This document shows positions 1 to 12,516 of a DNA stretch of 12,516 bases, piece by piece; position 1 is the stretch's first letter, and every line of letters begins with the position of its first letter. The notes beneath the pieces were generated by a model, which saw only the letters and a program-made list of their open reading frames with translations, was not told the DNA's origin and did not search any database. The translations under genes and the position numbers were made by a program. Location of the stretch: the IMG/VR virus record IMGVR_UViG_3300045988_140315, positions 1 through 12,516 of that record. One strand, written 5' to 3'. Source of the DNA: a virus.

Positions 1-119
1 CAGTTGAGTGTGTGGCTGTTGAGTGGTTTTTGGATAATCAGGAAATAGCACCTAACGGTTATTTGAGATATGAAAACATAAGTGATTTACTGTGTGACGT
101 TTACGACAAAGAATATGTA
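1..119. repeat. Left inverted terminal repeat (119 bp, perfect)
   Basis: Read directly: bases 1-119 are the exact reverse complement of 12398-12516, and identity breaks at 120 vs 12397. It contains the direct 8-mer GTTGAGTG at 3-10 and 18-25. ITRs at the exact ends, together with a protein-primed PolB, imply replication origins. Confidence 0.97.
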
Positions 120-165
120 AAACCTACTATGACAAACATTCACGCGGTGTTAAGGGAGTGTGTTT

Positions 166-171
166 TATAAT
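166..171 (+). promoter_or_regulatory. Candidate -10 box (TATAAT) for leftmost transcription unit
   Basis: Perfect TATAAT 75 nt upstream of the first start codon. No convincing -35 at 16-18 nt spacing (CGCGGT region), so the call is weak. Confidence 0.25.
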
Positions 172-176
172 GAAAA

Positions 177-196
177 TTAATGGTAAAAACCATTAA
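177..196. promoter_or_regulatory. Hairpin/inverted repeat TTAATGGT-AAAA-ACCATTAA in left control region
   Basis: 8-bp perfect stem with a 4-nt loop, read directly. It lies between the TATAAT and the first GTTGCAAC motif and is followed by an A6T5 tract. Function unknown (5' mRNA stem-loop or operator). Confidence 0.5.
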
Positions 197-214
197 CAAT
201 AAAAAATTTTTAAA

Positions 215-230
215 GTTGCAACGTTGCAAC
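215..230. promoter_or_regulatory. GTTGCAACGTTGCAAC double palindrome, copy 1 (perfect)
   Basis: Exact 16-mer preceded by TTTTTAAA. 15 nt separate it from ATG 246, and the purine-rich SD lies in between. Confidence 0.85.
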
Positions 231-245
231 AGAAAGGAAAATACC

Positions 246-884
246 ATGGAGAACATTATTAAATCAGAAAGCACAAACATCATGAACACATTTAAGAGCA
301 ACGCACTCAGGGAAAGTACTCAGCGTATCTTTACAAGAATGGTAAACGTAGAGGATAACAAGAAAGCTATCTGCACAGACCTCGCGGAGATATACAACAA
401 AGGTACGTGGAAAGAGGATTTCGGTGATTTTGGTGATTATACAATGACAATGTTTAACATTACAAAGTCTACTGCGAGCCGTATGAGAAGAGTTTCTGAC
501 AAGTTCATAACTGACATTAACTCACCGCTCAACGCTGAAATGTTCACATTTAATCAGCTTGCTGTACTTGTAACTCTTGACAATGAAGTTATTGAGAACT
601 CGACTGTAAATCCTGATATGACCATTAAGCAGTTGAGAGAATTTGTAAACAGCGTTAAGGGTCTTGAAATGAAAGACACCGAGGAAGCAGAGGAAGCAGA
701 GGAAGTAACAACTGCTGAAAGTTGCAACGTTACAACTAAGGAAGAGGAAGTGCCGAGAGGAGCACAGCACTTTGCAAGTCTTAAAGATTTGTCAATATGG
801 GTAAATGCACTTATGGCAAAGAGGGAGAAGCTTGAAAATATTGATATAAGTTTTGACGTTACAACGGCGCACACTGAGTATTAA
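246..884 (+). CDS. Putative HTH DNA-binding protein (DUF3102-like) with acidic linker; candidate early regulator
   Basis: ORF-track 180..884 trimmed to ATG 246, which has an AAAGGAAA purine run just upstream and sits right after the motif. The segment GDFGDYTMTMFNITKSTASRMRRVSDKF ... NPDMTIKQLREF resembles, from memory, the DUF3102 pattern (G.FG.WLE...S...A.RFMKVA.EF ... MTVRELRE) of Firmicute phage/plasmid proteins. An EEAEEAEE acidic stretch is present. Confidence 0.5.
   Translation: MENIIKSESTNIMNTFKSNALRESTQRIFTRMVNVEDNKKAICTDLAEIYNKGTWKEDFGDFGDYTMTMFNITKSTASRMRRVSDKFITDINSPLNAEMFTFNQLAVLVTLDNEVIENSTVNPDMTIKQLREFVNSVKGLEMKDTEEAEEAEEVTTAESCNVTTKEEEVPRGAQHFASLKDLSIWVNALMAKREKLENIDISFDVTTAHTEY
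721..736. repeat. Motif variant GTTGCAACGTTACAAC (1 mismatch) inside first gene
   Basis: Read directly: position 12 is G->A. It is followed by the SD-like AAGGAAGAGGAA and an in-frame GTG at 750. Confidence 0.7.
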
Positions 885-896
885 TTACTCAGTGTG
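870..896. promoter_or_regulatory. 27-bp palindrome CACACTGAGTA-TTAAT-TACTCAGTGTG enclosing the stop codon of the first gene
   Basis: 11-bp perfect stem with a 5-nt loop. The TAA stop (882-884) lies in the loop. No downstream T-run, so it is not a canonical intrinsic terminator. Confidence 0.6.
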
Positions 897-918
897 ACAG
901 AAAGAGAGGTAAGAGAAA

Positions 919-1131
919 ATGAGAAGACTTTTTGTTTGTGAATGGTGTGACAAGATATTTGATGATGAACATGAAGCCAAACAGTGCGAAAGAAGTCATT
1001 TGATACCCTTGAATGTAAATCCCACGTTTTATACAGAGGGTGCTAAAATCCCAGAACTTGTAACAGTTGACTTTGGAACAGAGGAAGTAATTTACAGACG
1101 TATAAATGGTACAACAATGCCACAGGAGTGA
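919..1131 (+). CDS. Small zinc-finger protein (F-x-C-x2-C-x3-F-x8-C-x3-H, classical C2H2-like spacing with Cys as third ligand)
   Basis: ATG preceded by GAGAGGTAAGAGAAA. N-terminus is MRRLFVCEWCDKIFDDEHEAKQCERSHL, giving C7, C10, C23 and H27 with 12 residues between the second and third ligands. Confidence 0.6.
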   Translation: MRRLFVCEWCDKIFDDEHEAKQCERSHLIPLNVNPTFYTEGAKIPELVTVDFGTEEVIYRRINGTTMPQE

Positions 1132-1139
1132 GGAGTAAT

Positions 1140-1301
1140 ATGAAGATAACAATAAAATCAATCGTAACAATCCTACTAACAATTGTGTTCTGTTTGTTAT
1201 CACTAGCAGGGTGGATAACAAGTGAACAGTATATGACAGTTTTTACAACTGTAATAGCATTTTATTTCGGCACTCAGTTTTCAAAAAATGGTAAGGTGTG
1301 A
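1140..1301 (+). CDS. Holin-like small membrane protein (53 aa, two hydrophobic segments); not in supplied ORF track
   Basis: Translated by hand: MKITIKSIVTILLTIVFCLLSLAGWITSEQYMTVFTTVIAFYFGTQFSKNGKV. A GAGGAG SD lies 4 nt upstream of the ATG. It sits immediately upstream of the endolysin cassette. It is probably absent from the track because it falls below the track's apparent length cutoff (no listed ORF is shorter than 60 aa). Confidence 0.55.
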   Translation: MKITIKSIVTILLTIVFCLLSLAGWITSEQYMTVFTTVIAFYFGTQFSKNGKV

Positions 1302-1303
1302 CA

Positions 1304-1519
1304 ATGTGGAGCACGATAATAGTTGCAGTGTTATCCCTGATAGGTACATTTATTGGTAGTTATTCAGGGTTCAAGCTAACAGAGTACCGAGTGCAACAGC
1401 TGGAAAAACGAGTAGCAGAGCATAACAATTTTGCTAGAAGATTGCCAGTAGTTGAAGAGCAAATAAAAGTAATTAACCATAGATTAACAGATTTAGAGGT
1501 AAAGAAAAATGACATTTAA
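1304..1519 (+). CDS. Membrane-anchored coiled-coil protein (71 aa); holin/antiholin or lysis accessory
   Basis: ORF-track 1298..1519 (GTG) trimmed to ATG 1304, with AAGGTG 5 nt upstream. It has an N-terminal TM segment (WSTIIVAVLSLIGTFIGSYSGF) and then a charged helical tail. It overlaps the endolysin start by 11 nt. Confidence 0.55.
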   Translation: MWSTIIVAVLSLIGTFIGSYSGFKLTEYRVQQLEKRVAEHNNFARRLPVVEEQIKVINHRLTDLEVKKNDI

Positions 1520-2177
1520 GGAATATATTTCTAAAACCCTAGGAAAGTCAATCGAGTTTGATGGGGTTTACCCCTATCAGTGTTGTGATTTAGTTAATGA
1601 TTATATGCAGAAATGTTTTAATATTTTTACATATTATCCATATAATTTCAATGCTCAACAGTATTTCACACGTTTCAACGAGGTATCGGCACTTGTAAAG
1701 AATTTTACAAAAATTTCAAATACTCCTGAGTTTGTACCAATGCAAGGTGATATTTGTATTTTTAAGTCGGCTGACAACATCGGACACATCTCAATAGCCA
1801 CGGGCGAGGGAAATACAAGCTATTTTTACAGTTATGACCAAAACTGGAACGGGCACAACTTTGTAGCAAAAGAGCGACACACATACCATAATTTTTTAGG
1901 GGTTCTGAGATACAAAGGCAATGCACTTGACACAGAGGGGTTAAAACGTGGAGATAATAATGCAGGAGTTTACGCCTACAAAATGTTGTTAAAACTTGCA
2001 AAAACTTGTAAAATAATTAGTACAAGTGTCGATTTTAACGGCATTTATGGTAAAGGTACAGAAAAAGCTACAAATGAGATTTTGCGAAAGTTAAAAAAGA
2101 AAGAAAATGGAATAGCAGGAGTAAAACTAATTAACGCACTTTATGAAGCTATTCTTGACAAAATAGTCAATTTTTAA
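1509..2177 (+). CDS. Endolysin: N-terminal CHAP peptidase/amidase domain plus C-terminal peptidoglycan-binding (PG_binding_1-like) domain
   Basis: The CHAP signature has catalytic Cys in YPYQCCDLVNDY and His in GHISIATGEG. The C-terminus (GLKRGDNNAGVYAYKMLLKLA ... NGIYGKGTEKATNEIL ... NGIAGVKLINALY) matches the PG-binding repeat pattern. A GAGGTAAAG SD is present. Confidence 0.85.
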   Translation: MTFKEYISKTLGKSIEFDGVYPYQCCDLVNDYMQKCFNIFTYYPYNFNAQQYFTRFNEVSALVKNFTKISNTPEFVPMQGDICIFKSADNIGHISIATGEGNTSYFYSYDQNWNGHNFVAKERHTYHNFLGVLRYKGNALDTEGLKRGDNNAGVYAYKMLLKLAKTCKIISTSVDFNGIYGKGTEKATNEILRKLKKKENGIAGVKLINALYEAILDKIVNF

Positions 2178-2263
2178 CAGATAATACGTTATGTGAGCAT
2201 TTAACAATACGACAGCAAATTGATAATAATTAACATTTATAAAATAAGAGTGCTAAACCGCTA

Positions 2264-2293
2264 TTGTTATCTAACGTACATAACTATTATATA
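2264..2293 (+). promoter_or_regulatory. Candidate sigma-A type promoter TTGTTA-N18-TATATA upstream of SSB gene
   Basis: Read directly within the 173-bp AT-rich non-coding gap. Such hexamers are frequent by chance in AT-rich DNA. Confidence 0.3.
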
Positions 2294-2350
2294 TTATGGT
2301 CAACCTGATATTGAACAAATTACAAAAAACATGGAAAGAGGTTTTTAAAC

Positions 2351-2689
2351 ATGAACGGATTTAACGTAAACATGACTAAAAAGGACATTTTTAATGCAAA
2401 AAGTGGGTCTATTTCAATCAAGACAGCAGAGGCGAGCGAGTGGCATACTGTTTCAGGCTGTGCAGTGGTAGAAAATGGTGGACTTGACAGGGATAAGAAA
2501 CCGTGTGATATTGGCTATATCGCTACAGATATTGGAGTTTTCGGTTTCTCGTCAAAGGTTTGTCTTGACCACATGGAAGAATTGGCAGATATTCTCAGCG
2601 AATGCCTTAATGACGGCGAAGAAGTAAAGGTAAGATTTGTCAAAGGTAAGTCAACCAATGGTGAGTTTTATTCAATTCAGATACAGTAA
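2351..2689 (+). CDS. Single-stranded DNA-binding protein, phi29 p5-like
   Basis: GGAAAGAGG SD. From memory of phi29 p5, IFNAKSG matches IFNAQTG, and the C-terminus EEVKVRFVKGKSTNGEFYSIQIQ matches ETFKVKVVQGTSSKGNVFFSLQLSL. Size is similar (112 vs about 124 aa). Confidence 0.55.
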   Translation: MNGFNVNMTKKDIFNAKSGSISIKTAEASEWHTVSGCAVVENGGLDRDKKPCDIGYIATDIGVFGFSSKVCLDHMEELADILSECLNDGEEVKVRFVKGKSTNGEFYSIQIQ

Positions 2690-2721
2690 ATACCAAAATC
2701 GGCAGAACGTGGTAATAAAAA

Positions 2722-2737
2722 GTTGCCACGTTGCAAC
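2722..2737. promoter_or_regulatory. Motif variant GTTGCCACGTTGCAAC (1 mismatch), copy upstream of portal cassette
   Basis: Position 6 is A->C. It is preceded by ATAAAAA. 24 nt separate it from ATG 2762, with a GAAAGGGGG SD in between. Confidence 0.8.
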
Positions 2738-2761
2738 CGATTGAAAGGGGGTTAAAGAAAA

Positions 2762-3718
2762 ATGGGTTCAAAAATAAAGCCATGGAACTGGAGCGAGTTC
2801 GGAGTTTCAAATATTGATAAAACACAATTGACAAACTACTATTACAAAATGTTGTTAAATCGTGTTATCAATATGTTTACATGGGAGAACCTACCAGACA
2901 CCATTGATGAACAAGTAATGAACTTTTGGTTATTTGTAACAGGAAGAGTTGTATTTACAGAATTTAACGGAAAGTTATATGCACTAAATGGAAATTATGG
3001 CGGTTATCCTAACGAGTATTATTTACCTACAGAATTTGTTATTGCAAATCCAATTTTAGGAAGTAAAATTGTAAAGTTAGACGTTGACGGAGTGGCAATG
3101 TTTAACAGCGATACCGACAAATACCCCACACAAACAATGACAGGTGGTTTGTACCCTATACTAACACTAACAGCAAATATGTTAGCTGATTGTGCAGTAA
3201 CAATATCCAGTGCATTGAAAAACGGCAGAGTTCAAACCGCATTTTTGTGCAAAGATGATACAGTGAGAATTGCAGGTGAAAAAGTTCTAAAACAGTTATA
3301 TAACGGCAATCCTGCTGTTATGATTGATGATACTATATTAAACTGCATTTCACCAATCAAAATGGCAGATAATACAAGTGTAGCTACAATTTTACAGCAG
3401 ACCGTTGAAACATATCAATTTTGGCTTGCAAATTTTTACAATTCAATCGGAGTAAATGCAAATTTTAACATGAAACGAGAGCGGTTAAACACGGCAGAAG
3501 TTAATATTAATGATAGTGCATTGTTTGTAAATGTTATTAATATGTTGAATAACAGGCAACAGGCACTTGAAAAAATTAACAAAATGTTTGGTACAAACAT
3601 AACTGTTGAAATTTCTGAGGAATGGAAAGACTTAACAGAAACTGAGGAAACCCCTATAGAGGAAGAACCTACAGAGGAAGAGGGAAAAGACAATGCGGAA
3701 GATAATAACGCTGAATGA
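2762..3718 (+). CDS. Portal (upper collar/connector) protein, phi29 gp10-like
   Basis: INMFTWENLPDTIDEQ matches recalled phi29 gp10 YQLFEWENLPPTINPS. IGVNANFNMKRERLNTAEVNINDSA matches [25 protein letters not shown]. It is 318 aa against about 309 aa for gp10 and has an acidic C-terminal tail. Confidence 0.88.
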   Translation: MGSKIKPWNWSEFGVSNIDKTQLTNYYYKMLLNRVINMFTWENLPDTIDEQVMNFWLFVTGRVVFTEFNGKLYALNGNYGGYPNEYYLPTEFVIANPILGSKIVKLDVDGVAMFNSDTDKYPTQTMTGGLYPILTLTANMLADCAVTISSALKNGRVQTAFLCKDDTVRIAGEKVLKQLYNGNPAVMIDDTILNCISPIKMADNTSVATILQQTVETYQFWLANFYNSIGVNANFNMKRERLNTAEVNINDSALFVNVINMLNNRQQALEKINKMFGTNITVEISEEWKDLTETEETPIEEEPTEEEGKDNAEDNNAE

Positions 3719-4370
3719 GTGGGTTGAAAAGTTTCCCACTATAAATACTATCTTTGACAAGGTATCAGCAGACTTGAAATTATTTACAGTTTTTACATCG
3801 GCTGAAATGTTCTCATATTTTGTAAACAAGTTTGGTGAGCGTGGATTTTATTTGTATTATGATGGCGAAAATGCCACAAATAATACTAATAGGGTGAAAC
3901 AGGCAAGCGACTATATAGCATTATATGGTAAATCTCACAAATACGAGTACGACAAGTTAGTTGATACTCTATCATTGGAATATAATCCCATTGAAAACTA
4001 TTTCATGACAGAAAAAGGAACAGACACAAGAACACCAAACATCACGCAAACAAACAAGGGTGTAAATACAAATACTGTAGGGGTTGACACGTCAATTACA
4101 ACTGGAAAGACAACTTTTGACAAATCTGATAGTTTTATCAATGATACAAAAACTACCAATACGGGAACTAATACCGATACGCAGGATATAAACACTACAG
4201 TTACCACGGCAGGAAATGAAAAAACTGTACATGAATTTACAAGAAGTGGTAATATAGGAGTTACCACGTCACAGCGGATGATTGAAAGTGAACGTCAGTT
4301 AGCTATGTTTTCCGTGGTTGATTTATTTGTTAAGGCTATAGCCGATATAATTCTAATCGGAGTATATTAA
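3693..4370 (+). CDS. Putative lower collar / tail tube protein (gp11-like by position)
   Basis: It follows the portal gene, as gene 11 follows gene 10 in phi29. The start overlaps the portal 3' end by 26 nt, with GAGGAAGAGGG upstream. A Thr/Asn-rich central segment (TNKGVNTNTVGVDTSITTGKTT...TNTGTNTDTQDINTTVTT) is consistent with an extended beta-hairpin tube region. No direct sequence recall supports this call. Confidence 0.5.
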   Translation: MRKIITLNEWVEKFPTINTIFDKVSADLKLFTVFTSAEMFSYFVNKFGERGFYLYYDGENATNNTNRVKQASDYIALYGKSHKYEYDKLVDTLSLEYNPIENYFMTEKGTDTRTPNITQTNKGVNTNTVGVDTSITTGKTTFDKSDSFINDTKTTNTGTNTDTQDINTTVTTAGNEKTVHEFTRSGNIGVTTSQRMIESERQLAMFSVVDLFVKAIADIILIGVY

Positions 4371-4373
4371 AAA

Positions 4374-4389
4374 GTTGCAACGTTGCAAC
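4374..4389. promoter_or_regulatory. GTTGCAACGTTGCAAC, copy upstream of capsid cassette (perfect)
   Basis: Exact 16-mer preceded by TTAAAAA. 21 nt separate it from ATG 4411, with an AGGAAAGGAG SD in between. Confidence 0.85.
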
Positions 4390-4410
4390 TAGGAAAGGAG
4401 AAAAAAATAA

Positions 4411-4698
4411 ATGCAAAAAGTGAGAAGCCCGACATATGCGGAAAATTATGTCAATCTAGCAAGAGCAGTTGTATTAAAAGTAGTAGTAGATACACTCCAG
4501 GGCAGGGAAGATTTAAAAGACTATATTTTATATAGTGATGATTTTATATTTTGGTTATGCCTTGCGAATTGGTTAAAATATGAAAATGTTATTAAGGATA
4601 AATTTTCATGTTTTAAGGGGATTGATAGAACGTTGAGAAAAAAACTAAATACATATTATCGTCTTAAAGGCGAGGAAATAAAGAGAGGTAAATTATAA
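4411..4698 (+). CDS. Hypothetical protein (95 aa), translationally coupled to major capsid gene
   Basis: Strong SD. Its stop overlaps the capsid start (TAATG). It occupies the position of the phi29 gp7 scaffold, but its composition (W/C/F-rich, not highly charged) is not scaffold-like. Confidence 0.6.
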   Translation: MQKVRSPTYAENYVNLARAVVLKVVVDTLQGREDLKDYILYSDDFIFWLCLANWLKYENVIKDKFSCFKGIDRTLRKKLNTYYRLKGEEIKRGKL

Positions 4699-5846
4699 TG
4701 AAAGTTACGCAGATAGCAACAATTTTGAATGAGGCACAGCAGGAGATAATCGGTGAGAGTGCTATAACAACGGAAAATCTTGAAAACGTTGTTGACATGG
4801 GCAAGCAGATACTTGAAGCGACAAATGTTGACAATTACGTCCGTAAACTGATTGATAAAGTCGGTAGGATGATTTTTGTTGACAGAGTTTACAATTCGAC
4901 AGCTCCTGACATTTTGGCGGATAGCTGGGAATACGGCTCTGCAATGCAAAAAGTTCGTTGTGAAATGCCTGACGCTGTTGAGAATGACAGCTGGAAACTA
5001 ACTAACGGGCAGAGTTATGACCCATTTGTTTTTACAGCCCCAGACGTTCAATCAAAATTTTATGACAGTAAGGTGACATATGAAGTGCAGATGTCATTCA
5101 CAGAAATGCAAGTTAAGAGTGCATTTAATTCACCTGCTGAAATGAATAGCTTTTTTGCTATGATTGAGAACAGAATACGTTTTAAGCTTACTTTGTCAAA
5201 TGATATACTTAAAACAAGAACTGTTAACAACCTTATTGCAGAAAAGATACACAGTAAAAACAATGTTGTCAATCTTTTGGAAATGTATAACACAGAGTTT
5301 ACACAGACCCTAAAAGCAACTCATGCTCTTATGGATAAGGATTTCCTTAGGTACGCTATTGGAAAAATCAAGGAGTACATCAAGTACATTCAGCGCCCCT
5401 CAATGCTGTTCAATGACGGCGGTTACACAACTTTCACCCCAGAAAGTGACATGAAAATGGTGCTTTTGTCACGATTTGTAAATACTGCTGAGGTTTATCT
5501 ACAGAGTGACACATTCCACAATGACCTTGTGAAGCTAAGTGGTTATTCTGAGGTACCATATTGGCAGGGTAGCGGAACGGGTGAAACGTTTGATTTTGAG
5601 GAAATTTCAAAAATCGATGTTACAACTGCTAGCAGTAACAGGGTATCTCAGACAGGTATTATTGGAGTTATTTTTGACAGAGACGCCTGTATGGTCTGCA
5701 ATGCTAATCCAAGGGTTACAAGTATTTACAATCCAAAAGGCGAATATTGGAACTATTTTTATAAATACGATGCAAGCTATTTCAACGATACTATGGAAAA
5801 TTGTGTTGTATTTATAGTAGCAGACACAGCAAAAAAAACAGTATAA
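4698..5846 (+). CDS. Major capsid protein, phi29 gp8-like (no C-terminal Ig-like domain)
   Basis: FDRDACMVCNANPRVTSIYNPKGEYWNYFYKY matches recalled phi29 gp8 [32 protein letters not shown]. It is 382 aa, with an AGAGAGG SD. Confidence 0.88.
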   Translation: MKVTQIATILNEAQQEIIGESAITTENLENVVDMGKQILEATNVDNYVRKLIDKVGRMIFVDRVYNSTAPDILADSWEYGSAMQKVRCEMPDAVENDSWKLTNGQSYDPFVFTAPDVQSKFYDSKVTYEVQMSFTEMQVKSAFNSPAEMNSFFAMIENRIRFKLTLSNDILKTRTVNNLIAEKIHSKNNVVNLLEMYNTEFTQTLKATHALMDKDFLRYAIGKIKEYIKYIQRPSMLFNDGGYTTFTPESDMKMVLLSRFVNTAEVYLQSDTFHNDLVKLSGYSEVPYWQGSGTGETFDFEEISKIDVTTASSNRVSQTGIIGVIFDRDACMVCNANPRVTSIYNPKGEYWNYFYKYDASYFNDTMENCVVFIVADTAKKTV

Positions 5847-5864
5847 CAAAATGATAGTTAAAAC

Positions 5865-5872
5865 GTTGCAAC
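5865..5872. promoter_or_regulatory. Lone GTTGCAAC half-site, in 8-bp register with the full motif 8 nt downstream
   Basis: Read directly. It is preceded by TTAAAAC. 8 nt (CCTAAAAA) separate it from the 5881 copy. Confidence 0.7.
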
Positions 5873-5880
5873 CCTAAAAA

Positions 5881-5896
5881 GTTGCAACGTTGCAAC
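5881..5896. promoter_or_regulatory. GTTGCAACGTTGCAAC, copy upstream of tail cassette (perfect)
   Basis: Exact 16-mer preceded by CTAAAAA. 19 nt separate it from ATG 5916, with a GAGGTGAG SD in between. Confidence 0.85.
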
Positions 5897-5915
5897 TATA
5901 TTGAGGTGAGAAAAA

Positions 5916-6416
5916 ATGCCAATTATAACAATGTATCAATGTTCACAGGACGTGAGAACAATTTCAAAAACGCTAACAAACGCAGTAGAATATAATTGTG
6001 AAATACTGGATATTATGAACAGTTTTACACCCCGTATAAGATTATTTTGCACGTCCGAAACGTTTAACGCAAATATGGTGTATATACCATTTTTTGATAG
6101 ATACTATCACATAATTTCAGCGGACGTTGAAAGTGCAGAAACTATTATTTTACAGTGTGAATTTGATATATTTACATATTCAGTAGCACTATTATCTAGC
6201 GAATTTTTAGTTACTAGAAATGAAAATATTGGAAGCACATATATCCCTGATACAATGTTACCATTAAAAGGTAATAAGGAAATGAAAGTAATAGAGTTTA
6301 CTGGTGGAGATTTTAACCTTGACACTGCTACAGTAAATAGTTACAATTTTGTACTAAATGTGGCAGGCGGTGGAAGTAATCAGGGAACAACAGAGAATGA
6401 GGGGCTGAGCATATGA
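5916..6416 (+). CDS. Tail protein resembling the N-terminal domain of the phi29 gp9 tail knob
   Basis: NANMVYIPFFDRYYHIISADVESAETIILQCEFDIFTY is similar in pattern to recalled gp9 [44 protein letters not shown]. It is coupled to the next gene by an ATGA overlap. Confidence 0.5.
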   Translation: MPIITMYQCSQDVRTISKTLTNAVEYNCEILDIMNSFTPRIRLFCTSETFNANMVYIPFFDRYYHIISADVESAETIILQCEFDIFTYSVALLSSEFLVTRNENIGSTYIPDTMLPLKGNKEMKVIEFTGGDFNLDTATVNSYNFVLNVAGGGSNQGTTENEGLSI

Positions 6417-8503
6417 AATTAAATAAGGAAATTTATTCCAGTGACCGCAGTATATCCATAGATTTTTTAAGTGGCATTAAAACAACTCAGTCATTAGAAA
6501 CTTTGGTTAATAATGGTAAATTACAATTAAACAACCCCATTGATGAAACGATTTTTTATGCGGTTGATTTTAACCCCCCTGACGATTATTTTATAAGAAG
6601 TGGGGGTAACAGCCCCCATCAATCAGAATTTGTTAAGGGGGCTAACACTCCGAGCGGTGTATGTGCTATGTTTGGCAGATTAAATACTAATGATACATTA
6701 CAAAATCGCCCCGTAATTGCTAACCAAACTAGGACTACATTTCATAGACTGGCATATGATAGTGACAAGAGTGATAGTTTAGGCTATTATTTTGGCACTG
6801 AGTATAAATTAAAAGATTTTCTTTTTTTGGTTCGAGTGATAGCGTATAGATTTGAATATTCTGATATGGGTGACGTATCGTCATTTAGTGATAGAATTGA
6901 CGTAGACGTACAAACATTTGAAACCACATATAAAAATACCCACCATATCGTAGGGATATACGCAGTGCCATATTATTTAAGGGCTGAAATTCATGATAGA
7001 AAATCATGTCAGGGGTTTAATATTATACCGTTTTGTACATATTCAAAAAATTCTATGGTGGATAATTATGACATTTACGGCGCATTATTTTTTGGCGGTG
7101 ATTATGACCAAGACCACGCAATTTTGAATACGTTTATTTATGGGTGTGAAGATTTATACACTAATTATTTTAATGACTATGATTATTATTATGCGAATTT
7201 AGGTTTTATTGATTTGTGGGATAAAACATATTTTGCTATTAATAGTGACGTGTATACGGGATATTTACCGGTTTTTGATTATAGTATCGAAAACATCCAT
7301 AAGTTATATAGCAGAATGGGAACATATTACACATTTTCGGCAAATTTAGCAAAGCAGGAAAATCTAAACCAAAATGGTATATATTGCGGTATTATTTCAG
7401 ATGATGGAAAAATCACTGGAAAATATTCTGAGGGTGCAGAAAATTCAAAACAAATTCAGACAACATGGGATAATCCGACAGACTGGCAAAATAACCCATT
7501 TAACGGCATAGGCAATACAGACCCTAACAACTACACCGACAAAATAGATTTGAATAAACCTACATTATCAAATGTGAATGTATTCAATCGCAGTTTCGCA
7601 GTAACATCAAACAGTGTTCGTCAACTTGCCGATTTTTTGTGGAACGCTGACGAAACAAAATTTGATGAGATTGTAAAGGGGTTAGCGTTAATGGGTGAAA
7701 ATCCTATGAACGGCATAATTGATTTGCGTTTATTTCCGTTTAATGTAGCTTTGAAAAATTCTGCCACGCAGGCAGAACCCATTGTAATAGGCAGAACAAA
7801 CACGGGTGTAAACGGCATTAAATTGACGGAAAATGTAAACAGTTTAATTGATTTAGGTGAATGCACATTTTTTACTAAATTCAAAAATTTCCTAGATTAT
7901 GAACCATACACAACAGCACAACTATATATTCCATATATTGGAGTAGTACCAGTTTCAACGGCTGAATTTATGGGGCATAGAATTTCGGTAAAAATGATAG
8001 TTGACTATACAACGGGTGCAGGAACGGCTATAGTATTTAAAGACGATATACCATTTATTTACAGAAATGGAGTAGTAGGCGTATCGATTCCAATGACTGG
8101 AAACGACAGTACAAGTTATGCAAATACAGTTATCGGAAATGTGGTTAGCGGTGTAGTAGGCGGTGTAACATCAATTGCTAGCGGAAATATTGGCGGTATG
8201 GTTAGCAGTGCCGAGAAATTGTATAGCGGTTTTGCGACTGGTACTAATTACCAAGAAGCGAGTGCAAGTTCGCCGTCTGTTGCAACGTGGCAACCTCAAC
8301 ATTGTTATTTCATAATTGACAGACCGATTTTAAATGCACCTGACAATTACGGGAGAACTGTAGGTTATGCTTGTGAAAAAACTGGAAAACTATCAGATTT
8401 TAAGGGGTTTACAGTTGTTAGCAACCCTGAAATAAATTTCAGGTGTACAGACAGCGAAAGACAATATATAGTAAATATGTTACAAGGCGGTGTATTTGTA
8501 TGA
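6413..8503 (+). CDS. Tail knob / distal tail protein (gp9-like C-terminal half) with a large Tyr/Asp-rich N-terminal region
   Basis: The C-terminal half has YIPYIGVVPV and a Gly-rich hydrophobic loop (GNVVSGVVGGVTSIASGNIGGMVSS) like the gp9 membrane-active loop. Its terminal segment GRTVGYACEKTGKLSDFKGFTVV...ERQYIVNMLQGGVFV parallels the gp9 C-terminus. It is the largest structural ORF. Confidence 0.7.
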   Translation: MKLNKEIYSSDRSISIDFLSGIKTTQSLETLVNNGKLQLNNPIDETIFYAVDFNPPDDYFIRSGGNSPHQSEFVKGANTPSGVCAMFGRLNTNDTLQNRPVIANQTRTTFHRLAYDSDKSDSLGYYFGTEYKLKDFLFLVRVIAYRFEYSDMGDVSSFSDRIDVDVQTFETTYKNTHHIVGIYAVPYYLRAEIHDRKSCQGFNIIPFCTYSKNSMVDNYDIYGALFFGGDYDQDHAILNTFIYGCEDLYTNYFNDYDYYYANLGFIDLWDKTYFAINSDVYTGYLPVFDYSIENIHKLYSRMGTYYTFSANLAKQENLNQNGIYCGIISDDGKITGKYSEGAENSKQIQTTWDNPTDWQNNPFNGIGNTDPNNYTDKIDLNKPTLSNVNVFNRSFAVTSNSVRQLADFLWNADETKFDEIVKGLALMGENPMNGIIDLRLFPFNVALKNSATQAEPIVIGRTNTGVNGIKLTENVNSLIDLGECTFFTKFKNFLDYEPYTTAQLYIPYIGVVPVSTAEFMGHRISVKMIVDYTTGAGTAIVFKDDIPFIYRNGVVGVSIPMTGNDSTSYANTVIGNVVSGVVGGVTSIASGNIGGMVSSAEKLYSGFATGTNYQEASASSPSVATWQPQHCYFIIDRPILNAPDNYGRTVGYACEKTGKLSDFKGFTVVSNPEINFRCTDSERQYIVNMLQGGVFV
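8279..8294. repeat. Motif variant GTTGCAACGTGGCAAC (1 mismatch) inside tail knob gene
   Basis: It is the exact reverse complement of the 2722 variant. It is read in frame as V-A-T-W-Q and lies about 205 nt upstream of the 8500 gene start. Confidence 0.7.
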
Positions 8504-9051
8504 TGAATGAATTTTATGCAAGTGGTTTAACAAATGAGCAATTGAAAGCGGAGATTTTAAGGCAAGGGCGTAAAGCAAATTTACGCCTTAGCCAATTGAA
8601 AAAAAGTGGGTATTACAAGAAAAACCCTATAATTATGGCGAAATGGAATACATTTCTAAAAGAGAGCAAATTTTCGACTAAAAAGAACTTTTTTAAAACA
8701 GGCACGAAAGGCGAAACCCGTGCAGATTTGTTAAAACATTATGTACAGATTAGACAATTTTTAGGTCAACAAACAAGTGTGGCTGACACGAAAAAAATTA
8801 TTCATAAACACGCCTTACGGCTGGAAATTGAAGATGAGACTGTTGAACGTGTACTAGAATTTTATGGAGATAATGCTATTTTAAAACAGCTATCTAATAG
8901 TGATTCGGCTCAAACATTTGTGCGTGATATGGTAACAAAAGGGTTTAATGATGATGAAATTAATGCAGTATTAGACACACTTGAAAAATCAGCAAAAACT
9001 GAAAGCGACATGAACGACTTAATGCGAAATTTTTTACAAACATTAAAATAG
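8500..9051 (+). CDS. Putative terminal protein (by position immediately upstream of protein-primed PolB)
   Basis: ORF-track 8443..9051 trimmed to ATG 8500, which overlaps the tail knob stop (ATGA) and has AAGGCGG upstream. It is a basic, helical 183-aa protein. RKANLRLSQLKKSGYY is reminiscent of recalled PRD1 TP QRQVSNLKKAGLI. The assignment is mainly positional. Confidence 0.5.
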   Translation: MMNEFYASGLTNEQLKAEILRQGRKANLRLSQLKKSGYYKKNPIIMAKWNTFLKESKFSTKKNFFKTGTKGETRADLLKHYVQIRQFLGQQTSVADTKKIIHKHALRLEIEDETVERVLEFYGDNAILKQLSNSDSAQTFVRDMVTKGFNDDEINAVLDTLEKSAKTESDMNDLMRNFLQTLK

Positions 9052-9072
9052 TTGCAACGTTGCAACTATTTT
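9045..9072. promoter_or_regulatory. 28-bp perfect palindrome AAAATA-GTTGCAACGTTGCAAC-TATTTT (motif copy 9051-9066, extended arms)
   Basis: Read directly. The first G of the motif is the last base of the TAG stop of the preceding gene. A potential 12-bp stem is followed by a U-rich run. 23 nt separate the motif from TTG 9090, with an AAAGGGG SD in between. Confidence 0.85.
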
Positions 9073-9089
9073 GTAAAGGGGTGTAATAG

Positions 9090-11225
9090 TTGATAAATGT
9101 AAATGATTTTGATTTTAACATTTTAAAAAATAATTTACAAACAGTTACAACCCGTACAAGAGATAATCAATTTATTGAATATTATAACGCCCCTTTTGCG
9201 TTTGATATTGAAACGAGTTCATTTTATGACGGAGAAAATAAACGGGCTTGTATGTATATCTTTATGTTTGCTTTAAATGGAAATTATGTATATGGCAGAA
9301 CATGGGAAGATTTCGACTTTACATTGAATAAGTTAAAAGAAGTATTACAATTAAATGAATACAAAAGAATTATAATATATATTCACAATTTAGGCTATGA
9401 GTTTCAATTTCTAATCGGTCATGAACGTTTCAAAGACGTTTTTGCAAGAAACGCCCGGCACCCTATTAAATGTACTATGAACGACTGTTTTGATTTAAAG
9501 TGTAGTTTAATGTTGAGTGGTATGAGTTTAGCAAAAACAGCAGACGACTTGACAAGCGTAAAAATACAAAAATTAACAGGTGATTTAAACTATAAACTTT
9601 TAAGAACATGGAAAACCCCTCTAACACAAGAAGAATTGGCATATTGTGAACATGACGTTAAAATTTTACATTATTTTATACTTGAAGAAATGGCAAAAAA
9701 TGATAATGATATAACAAAAATCCCATTAACTAAAACGGGATATGTTAGAAAATATTGTCAAAATTACATTAAGAAGCATACATATTATCCAAAATATAGA
9801 GAAAAAATTAAGAAGATTGCCCCAGTTGATAAAGACTTGTTTTGTTTATTGCATAAAACTTTTATGGGTGGATATACACACGCTAACTATATATATGTGG
9901 GAATGGTATTGGAAAATGTTGCCAGTATTGACTTTACAAGTTCGTACCCGTCCGTTATGATTAGAAAAAAGTATCCCATGCAACCATTTACAAAAATTCA
10001 CATAAAAGATTTAACAGATTTTAGATATTGTATTAAAAATTATCCTTGTGTTTTTGAAGTAGAATTAACTAACGTTATTGCTAAAAAATGTAATCACATT
10101 TTATCACGTTCAAAATGTTCTGTTTGTGATAATGCTGTTGTTGATAATGGGCGAATTGTATCAGCAGATAGAATATTTACATATTTTACAGATATTGACT
10201 TTAAGGACTTTGAACAATTTTATTCTTATGAACATTTGTCAATTGGTAAATTTTACACGTCAAGTTATGGATATTTGCCTAAACAAATTATAGAATGTGC
10301 ATTAAAATTTTACAACGACAAAACTACATTAAAAGGTGTAGTAGGAAAAGAAGTGGAGTATCTAGTCGGCAAAGGTATGCTAAATAGTTTGTTCGGTATG
10401 TGTGTAACAAACCCTGTAAACGATGATATTGTTTTTGATGGAAAAGAATGGAATACAGAAAAAAAAGATATTATGGAAGCGTTGCAAGAAAATTACATAA
10501 AGAATAAAAAGCAAGTGTTAGTATATCAGTGGGGAGTGTGGATAACTGCATGGGCACGGCACGAACTTTTTAAAGGTATATTAAAAATTAATGATGATGT
10601 TATTTATTGTGATACTGATAGCATTAAATTTTTAAACTATGAGAATTATGAAAACTGGATAAATGAATATAATAAAATTTGTATTGACGAGATAAACAAG
10701 GCATTAAACTATTATGAAATTGATTTGAATTTAGCTAAACCTAAAACAATTAAGGGTCTTGAAAAACCTCTAGGAGTATGGGATTTTGAGGGGATTTACA
10801 CAAAATTCAAGACGTTAGGAGCAAAACGTTATGCGTATGAGCAAGACGGGAAATTTAATATAACAGTTTCTGGATTAAATAAAAAGTGTGCCGCTCCTTA
10901 TATAGTTGCAACGTTGCAACCGTTTGAATTTTTTGACAATGAAATGTATATACCGAAAGAATACACAGGGAAAAATACATTAACATATATTAATGAACCA
11001 TACAAAATTATGGTAAAAGATTACCAAGGAAACTATGCAGAAGTATCAGAGAATAGCTACATACATATGGAAGAACAAGACTATAACATGGCACTATCAG
11101 AGCAGTTCATATATTATTTAATGTGCGGCACAAATTTTGGAAATAGTGCAAAAGAGCATACATTGTTTGAAAAAAGCCGAGAATTGGCTACAAATTTTTG
11201 GGAGTGTGATTTTAATGAGAAATGA
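9090..11225 (+). CDS. Protein-primed family-B DNA polymerase (phi29 gp2-like)
   Basis: ExoI FAFDIETSS; ExoII YIHNLGYEFQF; ExoIII YCEHDVKIL; motif A IDFTSSYPSVM; motif B KGMLNSLFGMC; motif C VIYCDTDSIKF; KxY LGAKRYAY. The apparent start is TTG, because there is no in-frame ATG before ExoI. Confidence 0.97.
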   Translation: MINVNDFDFNILKNNLQTVTTRTRDNQFIEYYNAPFAFDIETSSFYDGENKRACMYIFMFALNGNYVYGRTWEDFDFTLNKLKEVLQLNEYKRIIIYIHNLGYEFQFLIGHERFKDVFARNARHPIKCTMNDCFDLKCSLMLSGMSLAKTADDLTSVKIQKLTGDLNYKLLRTWKTPLTQEELAYCEHDVKILHYFILEEMAKNDNDITKIPLTKTGYVRKYCQNYIKKHTYYPKYREKIKKIAPVDKDLFCLLHKTFMGGYTHANYIYVGMVLENVASIDFTSSYPSVMIRKKYPMQPFTKIHIKDLTDFRYCIKNYPCVFEVELTNVIAKKCNHILSRSKCSVCDNAVVDNGRIVSADRIFTYFTDIDFKDFEQFYSYEHLSIGKFYTSSYGYLPKQIIECALKFYNDKTTLKGVVGKEVEYLVGKGMLNSLFGMCVTNPVNDDIVFDGKEWNTEKKDIMEALQENYIKNKKQVLVYQWGVWITAWARHELFKGILKINDDVIYCDTDSIKFLNYENYENWINEYNKICIDEINKALNYYEIDLNLAKPKTIKGLEKPLGVWDFEGIYTKFKTLGAKRYAYEQDGKFNITVSGLNKKCAAPYIVATLQPFEFFDNEMYIPKEYTGKNTLTYINEPYKIMVKDYQGNYAEVSENSYIHMEEQDYNMALSEQFIYYLMCGTNFGNSAKEHTLFEKSRELATNFWECDFNEK
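10905..10920. repeat. GTTGCAACGTTGCAAC, perfect copy inside the polymerase gene
   Basis: Read directly. It is translated V-A-T-L-Q in the thumb region. It lies 3 nt upstream of a promoter-like TTGAAT-N17-TATATA. Confidence 0.85.
10924..10952 (+). promoter_or_regulatory. Candidate internal sigma-A type promoter TTGAAT-N17-TATATA within polymerase gene
   Basis: Hexamers with a 17-nt spacer, read directly. It is about 260 nt upstream of the ATPase start and abuts the motif copy. Confidence 0.35.
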
Positions 11226-12309: not shown

Positions 12310-12344
12310 AACCCCATGAGTTTTTTCTCATGGGGTTTATTTAT
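12310..12344 (+). terminator. Rho-independent terminator AACCCCATGAG-TTTTTT-CTCATGGGGTT followed by TATTTAT
   Basis: 11-bp perfect stem, 6-nt loop and a U-rich tail, 4 nt after the ATPase stop. An A-run upstream makes it potentially bidirectional. Confidence 0.85.
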
Positions 12345-12397
12345 AGTATATAGGTAGCAATTACAGCTTCGAGCATCGCCATTGAAATGTTTTTATA

Positions 12398-12516
12398 TAC
12401 ATATTCTTTGTCGTAAACGTCACACAGTAAATCACTTATGTTTTCATATCTCAAATAACCGTTAGGTGCTATTTCCTGATTATCCAAAAACCACTCAACA
12501 GCCACACACTCAACTG
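12398..12516. repeat. Right inverted terminal repeat (119 bp, perfect)
   Basis: Exact reverse complement of 1-119. Confidence 0.97.

What the first reader, a model, noticed from the sequence alone, without database searches (positions are those of the whole stretch)
215..10920. Genome-wide 16-bp double palindrome GTTGCAACGTTGCAAC marking every gene-cassette boundary
Seen directly: there are five perfect copies (215, 4374, 5881, 9051, 10905), three one-mismatch copies (721, 2722, 8279) and one lone 8-mer (5865). A given 16-mer is expected about 3e-6 times in 12.5 kb, so this is not chance. The five intergenic copies have the same architecture. Each has an A-tract (TAAAAA) immediately 5'. Each motif ends 15-24 nt before the start codon, with the Shine-Dalgarno in between. 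They precede the regulator/lysis block, the portal block, the capsid block, the tail block and the polymerase, so they delimit functional modules. The unit seems to be the 8-bp palindrome GTTGCAAC. The 16-mer is two abutting units, and the lone copy at 5865 is in exact 8-bp register with 5881/5889. That points to DNA recognition by a dimeric or oligomerising protein (an operator) rather than only an RNA hairpin. The motif is too close to the start codons to lie upstream of a promoter. It must therefore overlap or follow the transcription start or sit in the 5' UTR, where it could also fold as a GUUGCA-ACGU-UGCAAC hairpin abutting the SD. The closest analogy I know is the start-associated sequences of cluster K mycobacteriophages. 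I know of nothing like it in phi29-type phages, where p4 sites look different. Alternatives are module-boundary recombination junctions, or weak terminators for antisense transcription (hairpin plus T5 on the minus strand).
Basis: partly seen in the sequence, partly recalled or inferred. Interest (0 to 1): 0.88.

Follow-up and report, generated by a model that had tools for sequence, protein, structure and literature searches.

The report
Genome-wide palindromic operator in small phage
A 16-base palindrome repeated nine times across this small phi29-like phage genome is real and conserved; it is most likely the DNA binding site of the phage's own first early protein, in a family where each lineage carries its own palindrome.

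Summary
GTTGCAACGTTGCAAC occurs 5 times perfectly, 3 times with one mismatch and once with two; 0.01 copies are expected. All nine positions are conserved in 18 related genomes, which also carry a copy in the right terminal repeat that this truncated window lacks. Three copies lie inside genes, and not every cassette boundary has one.

Across about 70 more distant relatives, each lineage has its own perfect palindrome in the same layout (A/T-rich flank, motif, ribosome-binding site, ATG). One clade uses the canonical host parS. The symmetry runs through the centre of the motif, which fits a dimeric protein on double-stranded DNA rather than a hairpin loop.

The best candidate reader is ORF1 (246-884), the first early gene. 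Its family was detected in most lineages with a private palindrome and in none of the parS-type genomes. In several lineages its gene is preceded by that lineage's palindrome. A moderate-confidence model gives weak matches to ParB/Noc DNA-binding domains and DUF3102 proteins.

Two problems remain. The same core is multi-copy in unrelated phages with no ORF1 homologue, and two sites form conserved long RNA-type hairpins. The closest analogues are mycobacteriophage stoperators, KorB operators and phi29 parS sites. I rate it a new variant of a known kind.

The parts
215..230 (.). Motif copy 1 (perfect), 15 nt upstream of the ORF1 ATG. In complete relatives this copy is the inner end of the left ITR, about 60 nt downstream of a consensus sigma-70 promoter.
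246..884 (+). ORF1 (212 aa), the first early gene and the candidate motif-binding protein. It has a helical N-domain with an HTH (FNITKSTASRMRRVSDKF), an acidic variable linker and a C-terminal helix. It is a remote relative of DUF3102 and the ParB DNA-binding domain.
721..736 (.). Motif copy 2 (1 mismatch), inside ORF1 in its indel-rich acidic linker. It is followed by an SD-like AGGAAGAGGAA and an in-frame GTG at 750.
2697..2742 (+). Two-part long hairpin: outer stem 2697-2702/2737-2742 and inner stem 2706-2716/2722-2732. It is built from a degenerate inverted copy plus motif copy 3.
   Evidence: -23.5 kcal/mol, z -4.4; 99% of cells paired; 7 pairs vary on one side and all keep pairing through G.U
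2722..2737 (.). Motif copy 3 (GTTGCCACGTTGCAAC, the same variant in all 19 genomes), 24 nt upstream of the portal gene ATG.
4374..4389 (.). Motif copy 4 (perfect), 3 nt after the stop of the 225-aa gene and 21 nt before the ATG of the 95-aa gene that precedes the capsid gene.
5854..5899 (+). Two-part long hairpin: outer stem 5854-5859/5894-5899 and inner stem 5862-5872/5881-5891. It is formed by the degenerate copy 5857-5872 and motif copy 5.
   Evidence: -21.9 kcal/mol, z -4.9; 100% paired; one pair UA to GC on both sides in 4 genomes
5881..5896 (.). Motif copy 5 (perfect), after the capsid gene and 19 nt before the ATG of the 166-aa gene. Distant relatives L211 and L254 have their own palindrome at this same gene junction.
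8279..8294 (.). Motif copy 6 (GTTGCAACGTGGCAAC), inside the 696-aa tail-region ORF and conserved in all 19 genomes.
9044..9073 (.). Motif copy 7 (9051-9066, perfect), extended by its flanks to a 30-nt palindrome. Its first G is the last base of the TAG stop of the 182-aa gene. It lies 23 nt before the polymerase TTG start.
10905..10920 (.). Motif copy 8 (perfect), inside the polymerase ORF. It is kept while flanking synonymous positions vary.
1..119 (.). Left arm of the 119-nt terminal inverted repeat (partner 12398-12516). It lies inside a small gene, showing that the contig is truncated or rearranged relative to complete relatives.

Best explanation
The 16-mer is a double-stranded-DNA operator. 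A two-fold symmetric (dimeric or higher) phage-encoded protein binds it, and that protein is most likely the product of ORF1 (246-884). ORF1 is the first gene transcribed from the promoter in the terminal repeat. It would bind its own 5' UTR copy (215) and its internal copy (721), giving autoregulation. It would also bind the copies placed in the few non-coding gaps at cassette boundaries (2722, 4374, 5881, 9051) and the copies tolerated inside genes (8279, 10905). The sites lie downstream of promoters and abut ribosome-binding sites. The most likely action is therefore a bound-protein roadblock or silencer of the downstream cassette, in the manner of stoperators or KorB. A ParB-like genome-organising role is also possible.

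What is shown: the sites, their conservation, the lineage-specific palindromes, and the co-occurrence and gene-adjacency of the ORF1 family. What is inferred: that ORF1 binds the motif, and the sign and mechanism of regulation.
For: (1) Enrichment and positional conservation in 19 genomes, amid variable flanks and synonymous change.

(2) Among relatives with 43-62% capsid identity, each lineage has its own perfect 14-bp palindrome, multi-copy and in the same motif-SD-ATG layout. Examples are GTTCGACGTCGAAC, TCCGTTTAAACGGA, TCTAGTCGACTAGA (15 copies), TCCAGTTAACTGGA and TCCACGTACGTGGA. All are symmetric through the centre, as a DNA dimer site requires and a hairpin loop does not.

(3) jackhmmer detects the ORF1 family in the window clade, L211, L224, L225, L230, L237, L250 and L254. 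These are 8 of the 11 lineages with at least 4 private copies. It also detects the family in L251, L263, L264 and L273. It detects none in the roughly 14 parS-type genomes or in the Astrithrvirus-like genomes.

(4) The ORF1-family gene is preceded by its lineage's palindrome in L254, L224, L225, L251, L237 and L230. In L237 a TTGACA-17-TATAAT promoter has one copy just upstream of the -35 and another in the 5' UTR. Window-clade ITRs show promoter, about 60 nt, motif, SD, ORF1.

(5) Recognition-helix sequences group with motif class. The GTT...ACGT...AAC lineages have xM(R/K)(R/K). The TCCG-type lineages have AYT(L/M)(L/V)(K/R)(I/V)GKE.

(6) The AF2 model has an N-domain pLDDT of 65-84. Its top meaningful Foldseek hits are Spo0J-parS (4umk, prob 0.95), the ParB DNA-binding domain with parS (6s6h), Noc and VirB. 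BFVD hits include DUF3102 proteins and a 'chromosome partitioning protein'. The L254 homologue hits DUF3102 at E 3e-4.

(7) An 18-kb contig with almost no protein similarity to the window (one tblastn hit) carries 15 copies of TCCGTTTAAACGGA. It encodes a distant ORF1-family protein directly after one copy.
Against: No binding was tested.

The structural similarity to ParB is not statistically significant (best E 0.42). hhalign against Spo0J and a PDB sequence search found nothing. Window ORF1 itself has no Pfam hit.

L260 and L276, and the partial contig L232, have private palindromes but no detected ORF1 homologue.

The identical core TTGCAACGTTGCAA is multi-copy in unrelated phages (groups B and C, L029) and in a mobilizable element (L108). 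No ORF1, DUF3102, ParB or HTH protein was found in these.

The helix/motif correlation has an exception (L230) and is confounded by phylogeny.

A roadblock on structural-gene cassettes is not obviously useful to a lytic phage.

Sites 2722 and 5881 show RNA-type constraints.
Confidence: 0.45

Rival explanations
1. RNA element. The transcribed motif folds alone as a 6-13-bp hairpin, or pairs with an upstream inverted copy to form a 17-bp two-part hairpin. It would act on the polycistronic mRNA as an endonuclease (RNase III-type) processing site, a 5'/3' stabiliser, or a modulator of the adjacent ribosome-binding site. This could coexist with DNA binding.
For: All copies are transcribed and abut Shine-Dalgarno sequences. 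The long hairpins at 2722 and 5881 fold far better than shuffles (z -4.4 and -4.9). At 2722, seven pairs vary on one side only and all stay paired through G.U, which is informative for the + strand only. At 5881 one pair changes on both sides, UA to GC. At 9051 the flanks extend the stem to 13 bp, with A/T to G/C changes on both sides.
Against: Copies within a genome are identical in sequence, including the 'loop'. Every lineage's motif is palindromic through its centre, which a hairpin does not need. The bare hairpin is weak (about -7 kcal/mol, z -1.4 at 215; not better than shuffles at 721, 8279 and 10905). In unrelated phages the outer pair varies without keeping complementarity. A degenerate second copy of a palindrome is automatically complementary to the first. 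The 5881 double change may be a single conversion from the 2722 cassette. No Rfam family matches.
Confidence: 0.2
2. Site for a host-encoded DNA-binding protein that the phage hijacks, as phi29 does with Spo0J at its parS sites. ORF1 would then have another role.
For: A sister clade carries five perfect canonical parS sites (TGTTTCACGTGAAACA) in ITRs and at module boundaries, and has no detected ORF1-family gene. phi29 has five parS sites used by host Spo0J (PMC2731898). The same core is shared by unrelated phages with no shared protein. The motif resembles parS in style: a 16-bp palindrome, GTT...AAC, with a central CG.
Against: A scan of 185,579 species' genomes returned essentially single, chance-level copies in scattered taxa. 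There was no origin-proximal cluster or regulon. The motif-bearing phage groups differ widely in GC (0.33 to 0.66) and in Shine-Dalgarno use, so they are unlikely to share a host. Several lineages carry both a private palindrome and a perfect parS, so these look like separate systems. The window has no parS within 3 mismatches.
Confidence: 0.2
3. Recombination junction or small mobile palindromic cassette. The identical sequences at gene boundaries would serve as, or result from, exchange points that shuffle modules.
For: L005 has an extra copy as a clean insertion of about 20 nt in the 2178-2350 spacer. L086 lacks motif plus SD at the 4374 position. The window's left end shows a rearrangement next to copy 215. 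The 5881 cassette in four genomes equals the 2722 cassette. The motifs are shared across unrelated phages.
Against: This does not explain the strict palindromy, the lineage-specific sequence, the conservation inside ORFs, or the fixed spacing to the SD. No recombinase or nuclease is associated. Gain and loss of operators is also expected under the operator model.
Confidence: 0.07
4. Promoter core or transcription start element. The A/T-rich flank plus GT forms a -10-like hexamer (nAnAGT), and transcription starts inside the palindrome.
For: In unrelated group B phages, a consensus TTGAC(T/G)-17-TATAGT/TAAGTT promoter has its -10 overlapping the first two bases of the motif. Window flanks read TAAAGT, AAAAGT, AATAGT and TATAGT.
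Against: No -35 element lies at the right spacing at the window's internal copies. At the ITR copy a consensus promoter lies 60 nt upstream instead. The 'ATAG' flank is often simply the upstream gene's stop codon. A palindrome is not expected for sigma recognition.
Confidence: 0.05
5. Terminators of antisense transcription, formed on the minus strand by a hairpin followed by a T-run.
For: The consensus scan calls minus-strand terminator-like sites at 2722, 4374 and 9051. A leftward promoter exists in the right ITR of relatives.
Against: The stem has only 3 G-C pairs. A strong bidirectional terminator already follows the leftward gene (12310-12337). Other lineages and the intragenic copies lack the T-run. 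This does not explain sequence identity among copies.
Confidence: 0.03

Closest known systems
Stoperators of Cluster A mycobacteriophages (L5/Bxb1-type immunity repressor sites)
   Same: There are many copies (about one per 1-2 kb) of one short sequence spread over the whole genome, mostly in short intergenic gaps next to start and stop codons and downstream of promoters. They are bound by a phage HTH protein that also regulates its own promoter. The consensus differs between lineages and co-evolves with the protein (PMC9283540, PMC6550527).
   Different: Stoperators are 13-bp, asymmetric and orientation-dependent, and are bound by a monomer. These phages are temperate with a defined immunity repressor. 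Here the site is a perfect 16-bp palindrome, the phage has no integrase or recognisable repressor, and no binding or elongation block has been shown.
KorB operators (OB, TTTAGCSGCTAAA) of plasmid RK2
   Same: A palindromic site is repeated about 12 times around a small replicon. Some copies sit just upstream of a -35 and others far from promoters. They are bound by a ParB-family HTH protein that acts as a global silencer (PMC11790492). Some relatives' motifs (TTTAGTCGACTAAA in L225) even resemble OB, and in L230 and L237 a copy sits just upstream of a TTGACA -35.
   Different: KorB has the ParB N-terminal CTPase domain, slides as a clamp and needs KorA. ORF1 is 212 aa with no detectable CTPase domain, and no KorA-like partner was identified.
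parS sites of phi29 and chromosomal ParB/Spo0J-parS
   Same: A 16-bp palindrome with a central CG and GTT...AAC arms occurs in several dispersed copies on a small linear protein-primed phage genome. A sister clade of this phage uses five perfect canonical parS sites in equivalent places (PMC2731898). From my own knowledge, B. subtilis also has a parS inside spo0J, as ORF1 has a copy inside itself.
   Different: The sequence is not parS; the window has none within 3 mismatches. The presumed reader is phage-encoded and lacks the CTPase domain. Most copies abut ribosome-binding sites. Several lineages carry both systems side by side.
Start-associated sequences of Cluster K mycobacteriophages
   Same: A conserved short sequence lies immediately upstream of many start codons.
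   Different: By my knowledge of Pope et al. 2011, SAS are asymmetric and occupy the ribosome-binding position. Here the motif is symmetric, a separate SD follows it, and a third of the copies are inside genes.
Intercistronic RNase III processing hairpins of T7 and SP82 (from my own knowledge)
   Same: Similar hairpins are repeated between cistrons of long phage transcripts. The two-part 17-bp hairpins at 2722 and 5881 have the right size and shape.
   Different: Those sites are irregular and not perfect palindromes, and they are conserved as structures. Here the 16-mer sequence is identical between copies, and most copies can only form a 6-7-bp stem.

Membership tests
Chromosomal-type ParB-parS system | Site matches the parS consensus TGTTNCACGTGAAACA | tested here: not met
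   No match within 3 mismatches in the window or in L054. Relatives L227-L247 and others do carry perfect parS.
Chromosomal-type ParB-parS system | Reader has the ParB N-terminal CTPase (ParB/Srx) domain | tested here: not met
   No ParBc or any other Pfam domain in ORF1 or in any other window protein. ORF1 is only 212 aa.
Chromosomal-type ParB-parS system | Reader has a ParB-type HTH DNA-binding domain | tested here: inconclusive
   Top Foldseek PDB hits are Spo0J, ParB, Noc and VirB DNA-binding domains (prob up to 0.95), but E is 0.4 or worse and TM about 0.3-0.5, on a model with pLDDT 62. One of 46 family members hits HTH_ParB at E 0.005. hhalign against Spo0J is negative.
Stoperator-type global repressor sites | Many copies genome-wide, concentrated in short intergenic gaps near start and stop codons, downstream of promoters | tested here: met
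Stoperator-type global repressor sites | Asymmetric site with one orientation relative to transcription | tested here: not met
   The motif is a perfect palindrome.
Stoperator-type global repressor sites | Bound repressor blocks elongating RNA polymerase | not testable with these tools
   Needs in vitro transcription or reporter assays.
KorB-OB-type global regulation | Palindromic operator repeated at promoter-proximal and promoter-distal positions on one replicon | tested here: met
   Copies upstream of the -35 are seen in L230 and L237.
KorB-OB-type global regulation | ParB-CTPase clamp plus a locking partner (KorA or TrbA) | tested here: not met
   No CTPase domain and no identifiable partner.
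DUF3102 (PF11300), for ORF1 | Score above the Pfam gathering threshold | tested here: not met
   Window ORF1 has no hit even at E 5. The L254 homologue scores 21.3 bits against a cut-off of 24.4. Two of 46 family members reach E 5e-4. One nr record is named DUF3102, and BFVD structural neighbours include DUF3102 proteins. ORF1 is a remote relative, not a member by the curated test.
Intrinsic (rho-independent) terminator | G+C-rich stem followed by a T-run on the transcribed strand | tested here: not met
   On the + strand only 10905 is called, weakly. Calls on the minus strand are at 2722, 4374 and 9051, with 3 G-C pairs.
Cluster K start-associated sequence | Asymmetric motif occupying the ribosome-binding position of many genes | tested here: not met
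   The motif is symmetric. A separate SD lies between motif and start codon, and 3 of 9 copies are intragenic.
Known RNA family (Rfam) | Match at the gathering score | tested here: not met
   0 matches in the window and L054.

The most novel reading that the evidence does not exclude
The family has 897 cluster representatives and is ParB-DNA-binding-domain-like, but lacks the CTPase. Its members would read fast-diversifying 'private parS-like' palindromes spread over the whole genome. Together, protein and sites would form a silencing or segregation system. That system would let nominally virulent protein-primed phages switch off and persist as dormant linear episomes, as a phage-owned counterpart of phi29's use of host Spo0J/parS. 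The palindrome 'types' would act as exchangeable specificity (immunity) classes shared horizontally between unrelated phage families.
Probability: 0.2. Interest if true: 0.8.

Novelty: new variant of a known kind. Interest (0 to 1): 0.6.

Why it matters
Small phi29-like phages of 11-13 kb are abundant in metagenomes, and how they schedule gene expression is unknown. They lack recognisable homologues of the phi29 regulators p4 and p6.

The data define a family-wide and easily testable regulatory grammar. There is one palindrome per lineage, with copies in the terminal repeats and at cassette boundaries. They also nominate a reader from an uncharacterised protein family with hundreds of members.

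If ORF1 binds these sites, this would give a function to a DUF3102-like family. It would also provide natural specificity variants (protein/site pairs) for studying how HTH specificity evolves, and orthogonal operator/repressor pairs for engineering.

The parallel with host parS use, in phi29 and in the sister clade, raises the question of whether these 'lytic' phages have a dormant state.

The occurrence of the same palindromes in unrelated phages is unexplained and is itself worth following.

Tried and rejected
- Literature search for the exact sequence and sub-strings: no relevant hit. The one paper found concerns unrelated coding repeats.
- Megablast of the window against INPHARED: nothing.
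- A protein shared between the window clade and the unrelated motif-bearing phages: none by blastp, phmmer, the ORF1-family HMM, Pfam or hhalign.
- Host regulon or chromosomal parS idea: the genome scan gave chance-level singletons, some of them tandem 8-bp microsatellites.
- First AF2 model with a shallow alignment: unusable, pLDDT 54.
- Sequence-level link of ORF1 to ParB: negative.
- Recognition-helix match between the L357 protein and L254/L224, which share the same motif: not convincing.
- Sample or host origin through the look-up of encoding contigs: not on record.
- LacI/cre, sigma-54, LexA, NrdR, MetJ-box and N4-type hairpin-promoter resemblances were considered from memory and dropped. 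The spacing or consensus does not fit, or the genome has no matching enzyme.
- Assembly or vector artefact: rejected. The copies are positionally conserved in contigs from at least four metagenomes and are read in frame inside genes.

Full report
**1. The observation.** GTTGCAACGTTGCAAC occurs at 215, 4374, 5881, 9051 and 10905 perfectly. It occurs at 721, 2722 and 8279 with one mismatch and at 5857 with two. Only 0.01 copies are expected, and no shuffle comes close. The 8-mer occurs 14 times against 0.28 expected.

The window encodes a phi29-type capsid, connector, protein-primed B-family polymerase and Gp16-type packaging ATPase, all on the + strand. Five copies (215, 2722, 4374, 5881, 9051) sit between a stop codon and a Shine-Dalgarno sequence, 15-24 nt before a start codon. 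The degenerate copy at 5857 lies just upstream of 5881.

Three copies are inside ORFs: 721 in ORF1, 8279 in the 696-aa gene, and 10905 in the polymerase. Several boundaries have no copy (885-918, 2178-2350). The description is accurate, but 'every boundary' and 'five perfect = five intergenic' are not.

**2. The window is not a whole genome.** Its ends are a 119-nt inverted repeat that lies inside a small gene. Eighteen close relatives (80-98% protein identity) include complete genomes with 330-410-bp ITRs.

Each ITR holds short direct repeats, a consensus promoter (TTGACA, 17 nt, extended -10 TATACT), the motif about 60 nt further on, and then the SD. The ITR ends there. The left copy leads into ORF1 and the right copy into a leftward gene, MKINGTEVKG.... 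So at these copies the motif is downstream of the promoter, in the 5' UTR.

All nine window positions carry the motif in essentially all relatives, which also have the right-ITR copy that the window lacks. The motif is kept amid indel-rich or divergent flanks (721, 9051) and amid synonymous change (10905).

**3. Wider comparison.**
- The nearest cultured phages are Astrithrvirus (Acinetobacter phage Phanie, Salmonella phage astrithr; 42-47% capsid identity) and, more distantly, Amedibacillus phage AD70P2. Phanie, astrithr and AD70P2 have no enriched G+C-containing palindrome.
- A capsid-profile scan brought in about 60 further relatives of 11-13 kb. A census of palindromes shows that many lineages have their own multi-copy perfect palindrome.
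  - L211: GTTCGACGTCGAAC
  - L224 and L254: TCCGTTTAAACGGA
  - L225: TTTAGTCGACTAAA
  - L230: TCTAATCGATTAGA
  - L232: TCCAGTTAACTGGA
  - L237: TCTAGTCGACTAGA (15 copies)
  - L250: TCCGGTTAACCGGA
  - L260: TCCACGCGCGTGGA
  - L276: TCCACGTACGTGGA
- The layout is the same as in the window: A/T-rich flank, motif, 13-25 nt with an SD, then ATG. It includes a copy at the junction after the capsid gene.
- A large clade (L227-L229, L233-L236, L239, L243, L244, L247 and others) instead has the full canonical parS, TGTTTCACGTGAAACA. There are five copies: one in each ITR and three at module boundaries. phi29 itself is reported to have five parS sites used by host Spo0J for spore entrapment (PMC2731898).
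- Every one of these motifs is symmetric through its centre (ACGT, TTTAAA, TCGA, CGCG, GTAC). This is the signature of a two-fold symmetric protein on duplex DNA. A hairpin loop has no need to be self-complementary.

**4. The candidate reader.** ORF1 (212 aa) has an HTH-like segment and only a PHROG of unknown function.
- Distribution. jackhmmer over the relatives' ORFs finds the family in the window clade, L254, L250, L224, L230, L225, L211, L263, L251, L273, L264 and L237. That covers 8 of the 11 lineages with at least 4 private copies. It finds none in any parS-type or Astrithrvirus-like genome.
- Gene adjacency. In L254, L224, L225 and L251 the lineage's palindrome lies directly before the SD of the ORF1-family gene. 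In L237 a consensus promoter for this gene has one copy just upstream of the -35 and another in the 5' UTR. In L230 a copy abuts a TTGACA. This recurring arrangement, with different palindromes, looks like autoregulation.
- Helix classes. Recognition-helix sequences fall into classes that follow motif classes, with one exception.
- Annotation and structure. The L254 homologue scores just below threshold on DUF3102, and one nr homologue is so named. With a 38-sequence alignment, AF2 gives a usable N-domain (pLDDT 65-84). Its best meaningful PDB neighbours are the DNA-binding domains of Spo0J, ParB, Noc and VirB. Probabilities reach 0.95, but E-values are non-significant. BFVD neighbours include DUF3102 proteins and a 'chromosome partitioning protein'. 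Sequence-level tests against ParB are negative.
- Family size. The family has 897 representatives at E <= 1e-3 and is essentially outside Pfam.

**5. What does not fit.**
- The core TTGCAACGTTGCAA is also multi-copy, at about one per kb, in phages with no detectable homology to this one. Often the stop codon and the ATG directly abut it. These are a 16-17-kb group with a terminase (L042, L088, L080 and others), a 26-kb contig with T7-like replication genes (L022), a GC-rich contig (L029), and a mobilizable element in a Treponema MAG where A- and T-runs flank the motif (L108).
- No ORF1-like, ParB or HTH protein was found in these.
- TCCGTTTAAACGGA is likewise multi-copy in other contigs. One of them, an 18-kb contig with 15 copies, does encode a distant ORF1-family protein right after a copy.
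- Bacterial genomes hold the 16-mer only at chance level, so a conserved host regulon is not evident.
- Several lineages have both a private palindrome and one or two perfect parS sites. The two therefore look like separate systems rather than substitutes.

**6. RNA-level evidence.** At 2722 and 5881 an upstream degenerate inverted copy pairs with the first 11 nt of the motif, and outer flanks add 6 bp. The folds reach -23.5 and -21.9 kcal/mol, with z -4.4 and -4.9.

At 2722, 99% of cells are paired. Seven pairs vary on one side only, always through G.U or Watson-Crick alternatives. By my estimate, about 1 in 60 would do so if transitions were unconstrained.

At 5881 one pair changes on both sides in four genomes. 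This may be a single conversion from the 2722 cassette.

The bare 16-mer hairpin is weak, and the intragenic copies fold no better than shuffles. An RNA role at these two junctions is therefore plausible, but it cannot explain the sequence identity of all copies.

**7. Conclusion.** The best-supported reading is a dispersed dsDNA operator for a phage-encoded symmetric protein, probably ORF1. Its placement suggests autoregulation and cassette-level roadblock or silencing (works like stoperators or KorB-OB), or ParB-like genome organisation. The evidence is comparative only, and binding, sign and mechanism are inferred. The thing works like these systems but fails their membership tests: the site is symmetric, there is no CTPase, it is not parS, and it falls below the DUF3102 threshold. 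I therefore rate it a new variant of a known kind.

Noticed in passing
window 1-245 and 12341-12516: The contig is truncated or rearranged. Bases 1-119 are the reverse complement of 12398-12516 and lie inside a small gene (ORF 12-170 on +, ORF 12341-12505 on -). Complete relatives have this gene only at the right end, behind a 330-410-bp ITR. A remnant of that gene's start (ATGAAAATTAATGGT, 170-184) sits just upstream of motif copy 215.
   Followed up: partly
L054, L025, L031 (relatives), first and last ~400 nt: The ITRs contain 3-4 direct repeats of GAGTACAAATAATTGGAC and repeats of GTAAAGTGCTAAAG near the termini. They also hold a consensus sigma-70 promoter (TTGACA-17-tgGTATACT) and a GTTAAGG/CCTTAAC hairpin before the motif. 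The repeats may be replication-origin or terminal-protein-related sites.
   Followed up: no
L042, L088+L039, L080+L020, L009, L066, L032; L022; L029; L108: Unrelated phages and a mobilizable element carry the same core TTGCAACGTTGCAA at about 1 per kb, often as stop codon, motif, 0-25 nt, ATG with no Shine-Dalgarno. In the 16-17-kb group the terminase promoter's -10 (TATAGT/TAAGTT) overlaps the motif. In L108 the motif is flanked by A- and T-runs like a bidirectional terminator.
   Followed up: partly
L227-L229, L233-L236, L239, L241, L243, L244, L247, L259, L278: A clade of relatives has 3-6 perfect canonical parS sites (TGTTTCACGTGAAACA), in both ITRs and at module boundaries, and no ORF1-family gene. 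Single or double perfect parS sites also occur in L211, L224, L250, L260, L276 and L220.
   Followed up: partly
L293+L337+L357 (one 17.9-kb contig); L299, L303, L317, L324, L335, L362: The palindrome of lineages L224/L254 (TCCGTTTAAACGGA) is also multi-copy in unrelated viral contigs. There are 15 copies in the 17.9-kb contig and 4-5 clustered copies in 40-kb contigs of GC 0.47.
   Followed up: partly
L005 (relative), aligned to window ~2244: One genome has an extra perfect motif copy as a clean insertion of about 20 nt in the otherwise motif-free spacer. L086 lacks the motif and SD at the position of window 4374.
   Followed up: no
window 2178-2350: This is the longest non-coding stretch. It is conserved in all relatives, AT-rich, and has promoter-like elements (TTGATA...; TTGTTA-17-TTATAT/TATATT) but no motif. 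It is possibly the promoter for the p112-portal-capsid-tail-replication transcription unit.
   Followed up: no
window 737-752: Directly after intragenic copy 721 come an SD-like AGGAAGAGGAA and a GTG (750) in frame with ORF1. The motif-SD-start layout is thus repeated inside the gene, and a 44-aa C-terminal product is conceivable.
   Followed up: no
window 12310-12337: A strong bidirectional terminator-like hairpin (11 bp, 6 G-C) lies between the packaging ATPase gene and the convergent right-end gene.
   Followed up: no
window 886-912: An inverted repeat, CACTGAGTA/TACTCAGTG, lies just after the ORF1 stop codon and is not followed by a T-run.
   Followed up: no
window 919-1131: A 70-aa protein with a CxxC...HxxxxC...H zinc-finger-like pattern follows ORF1. 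It is poorly conserved (35-97% identity) or absent among close relatives.
   Followed up: no
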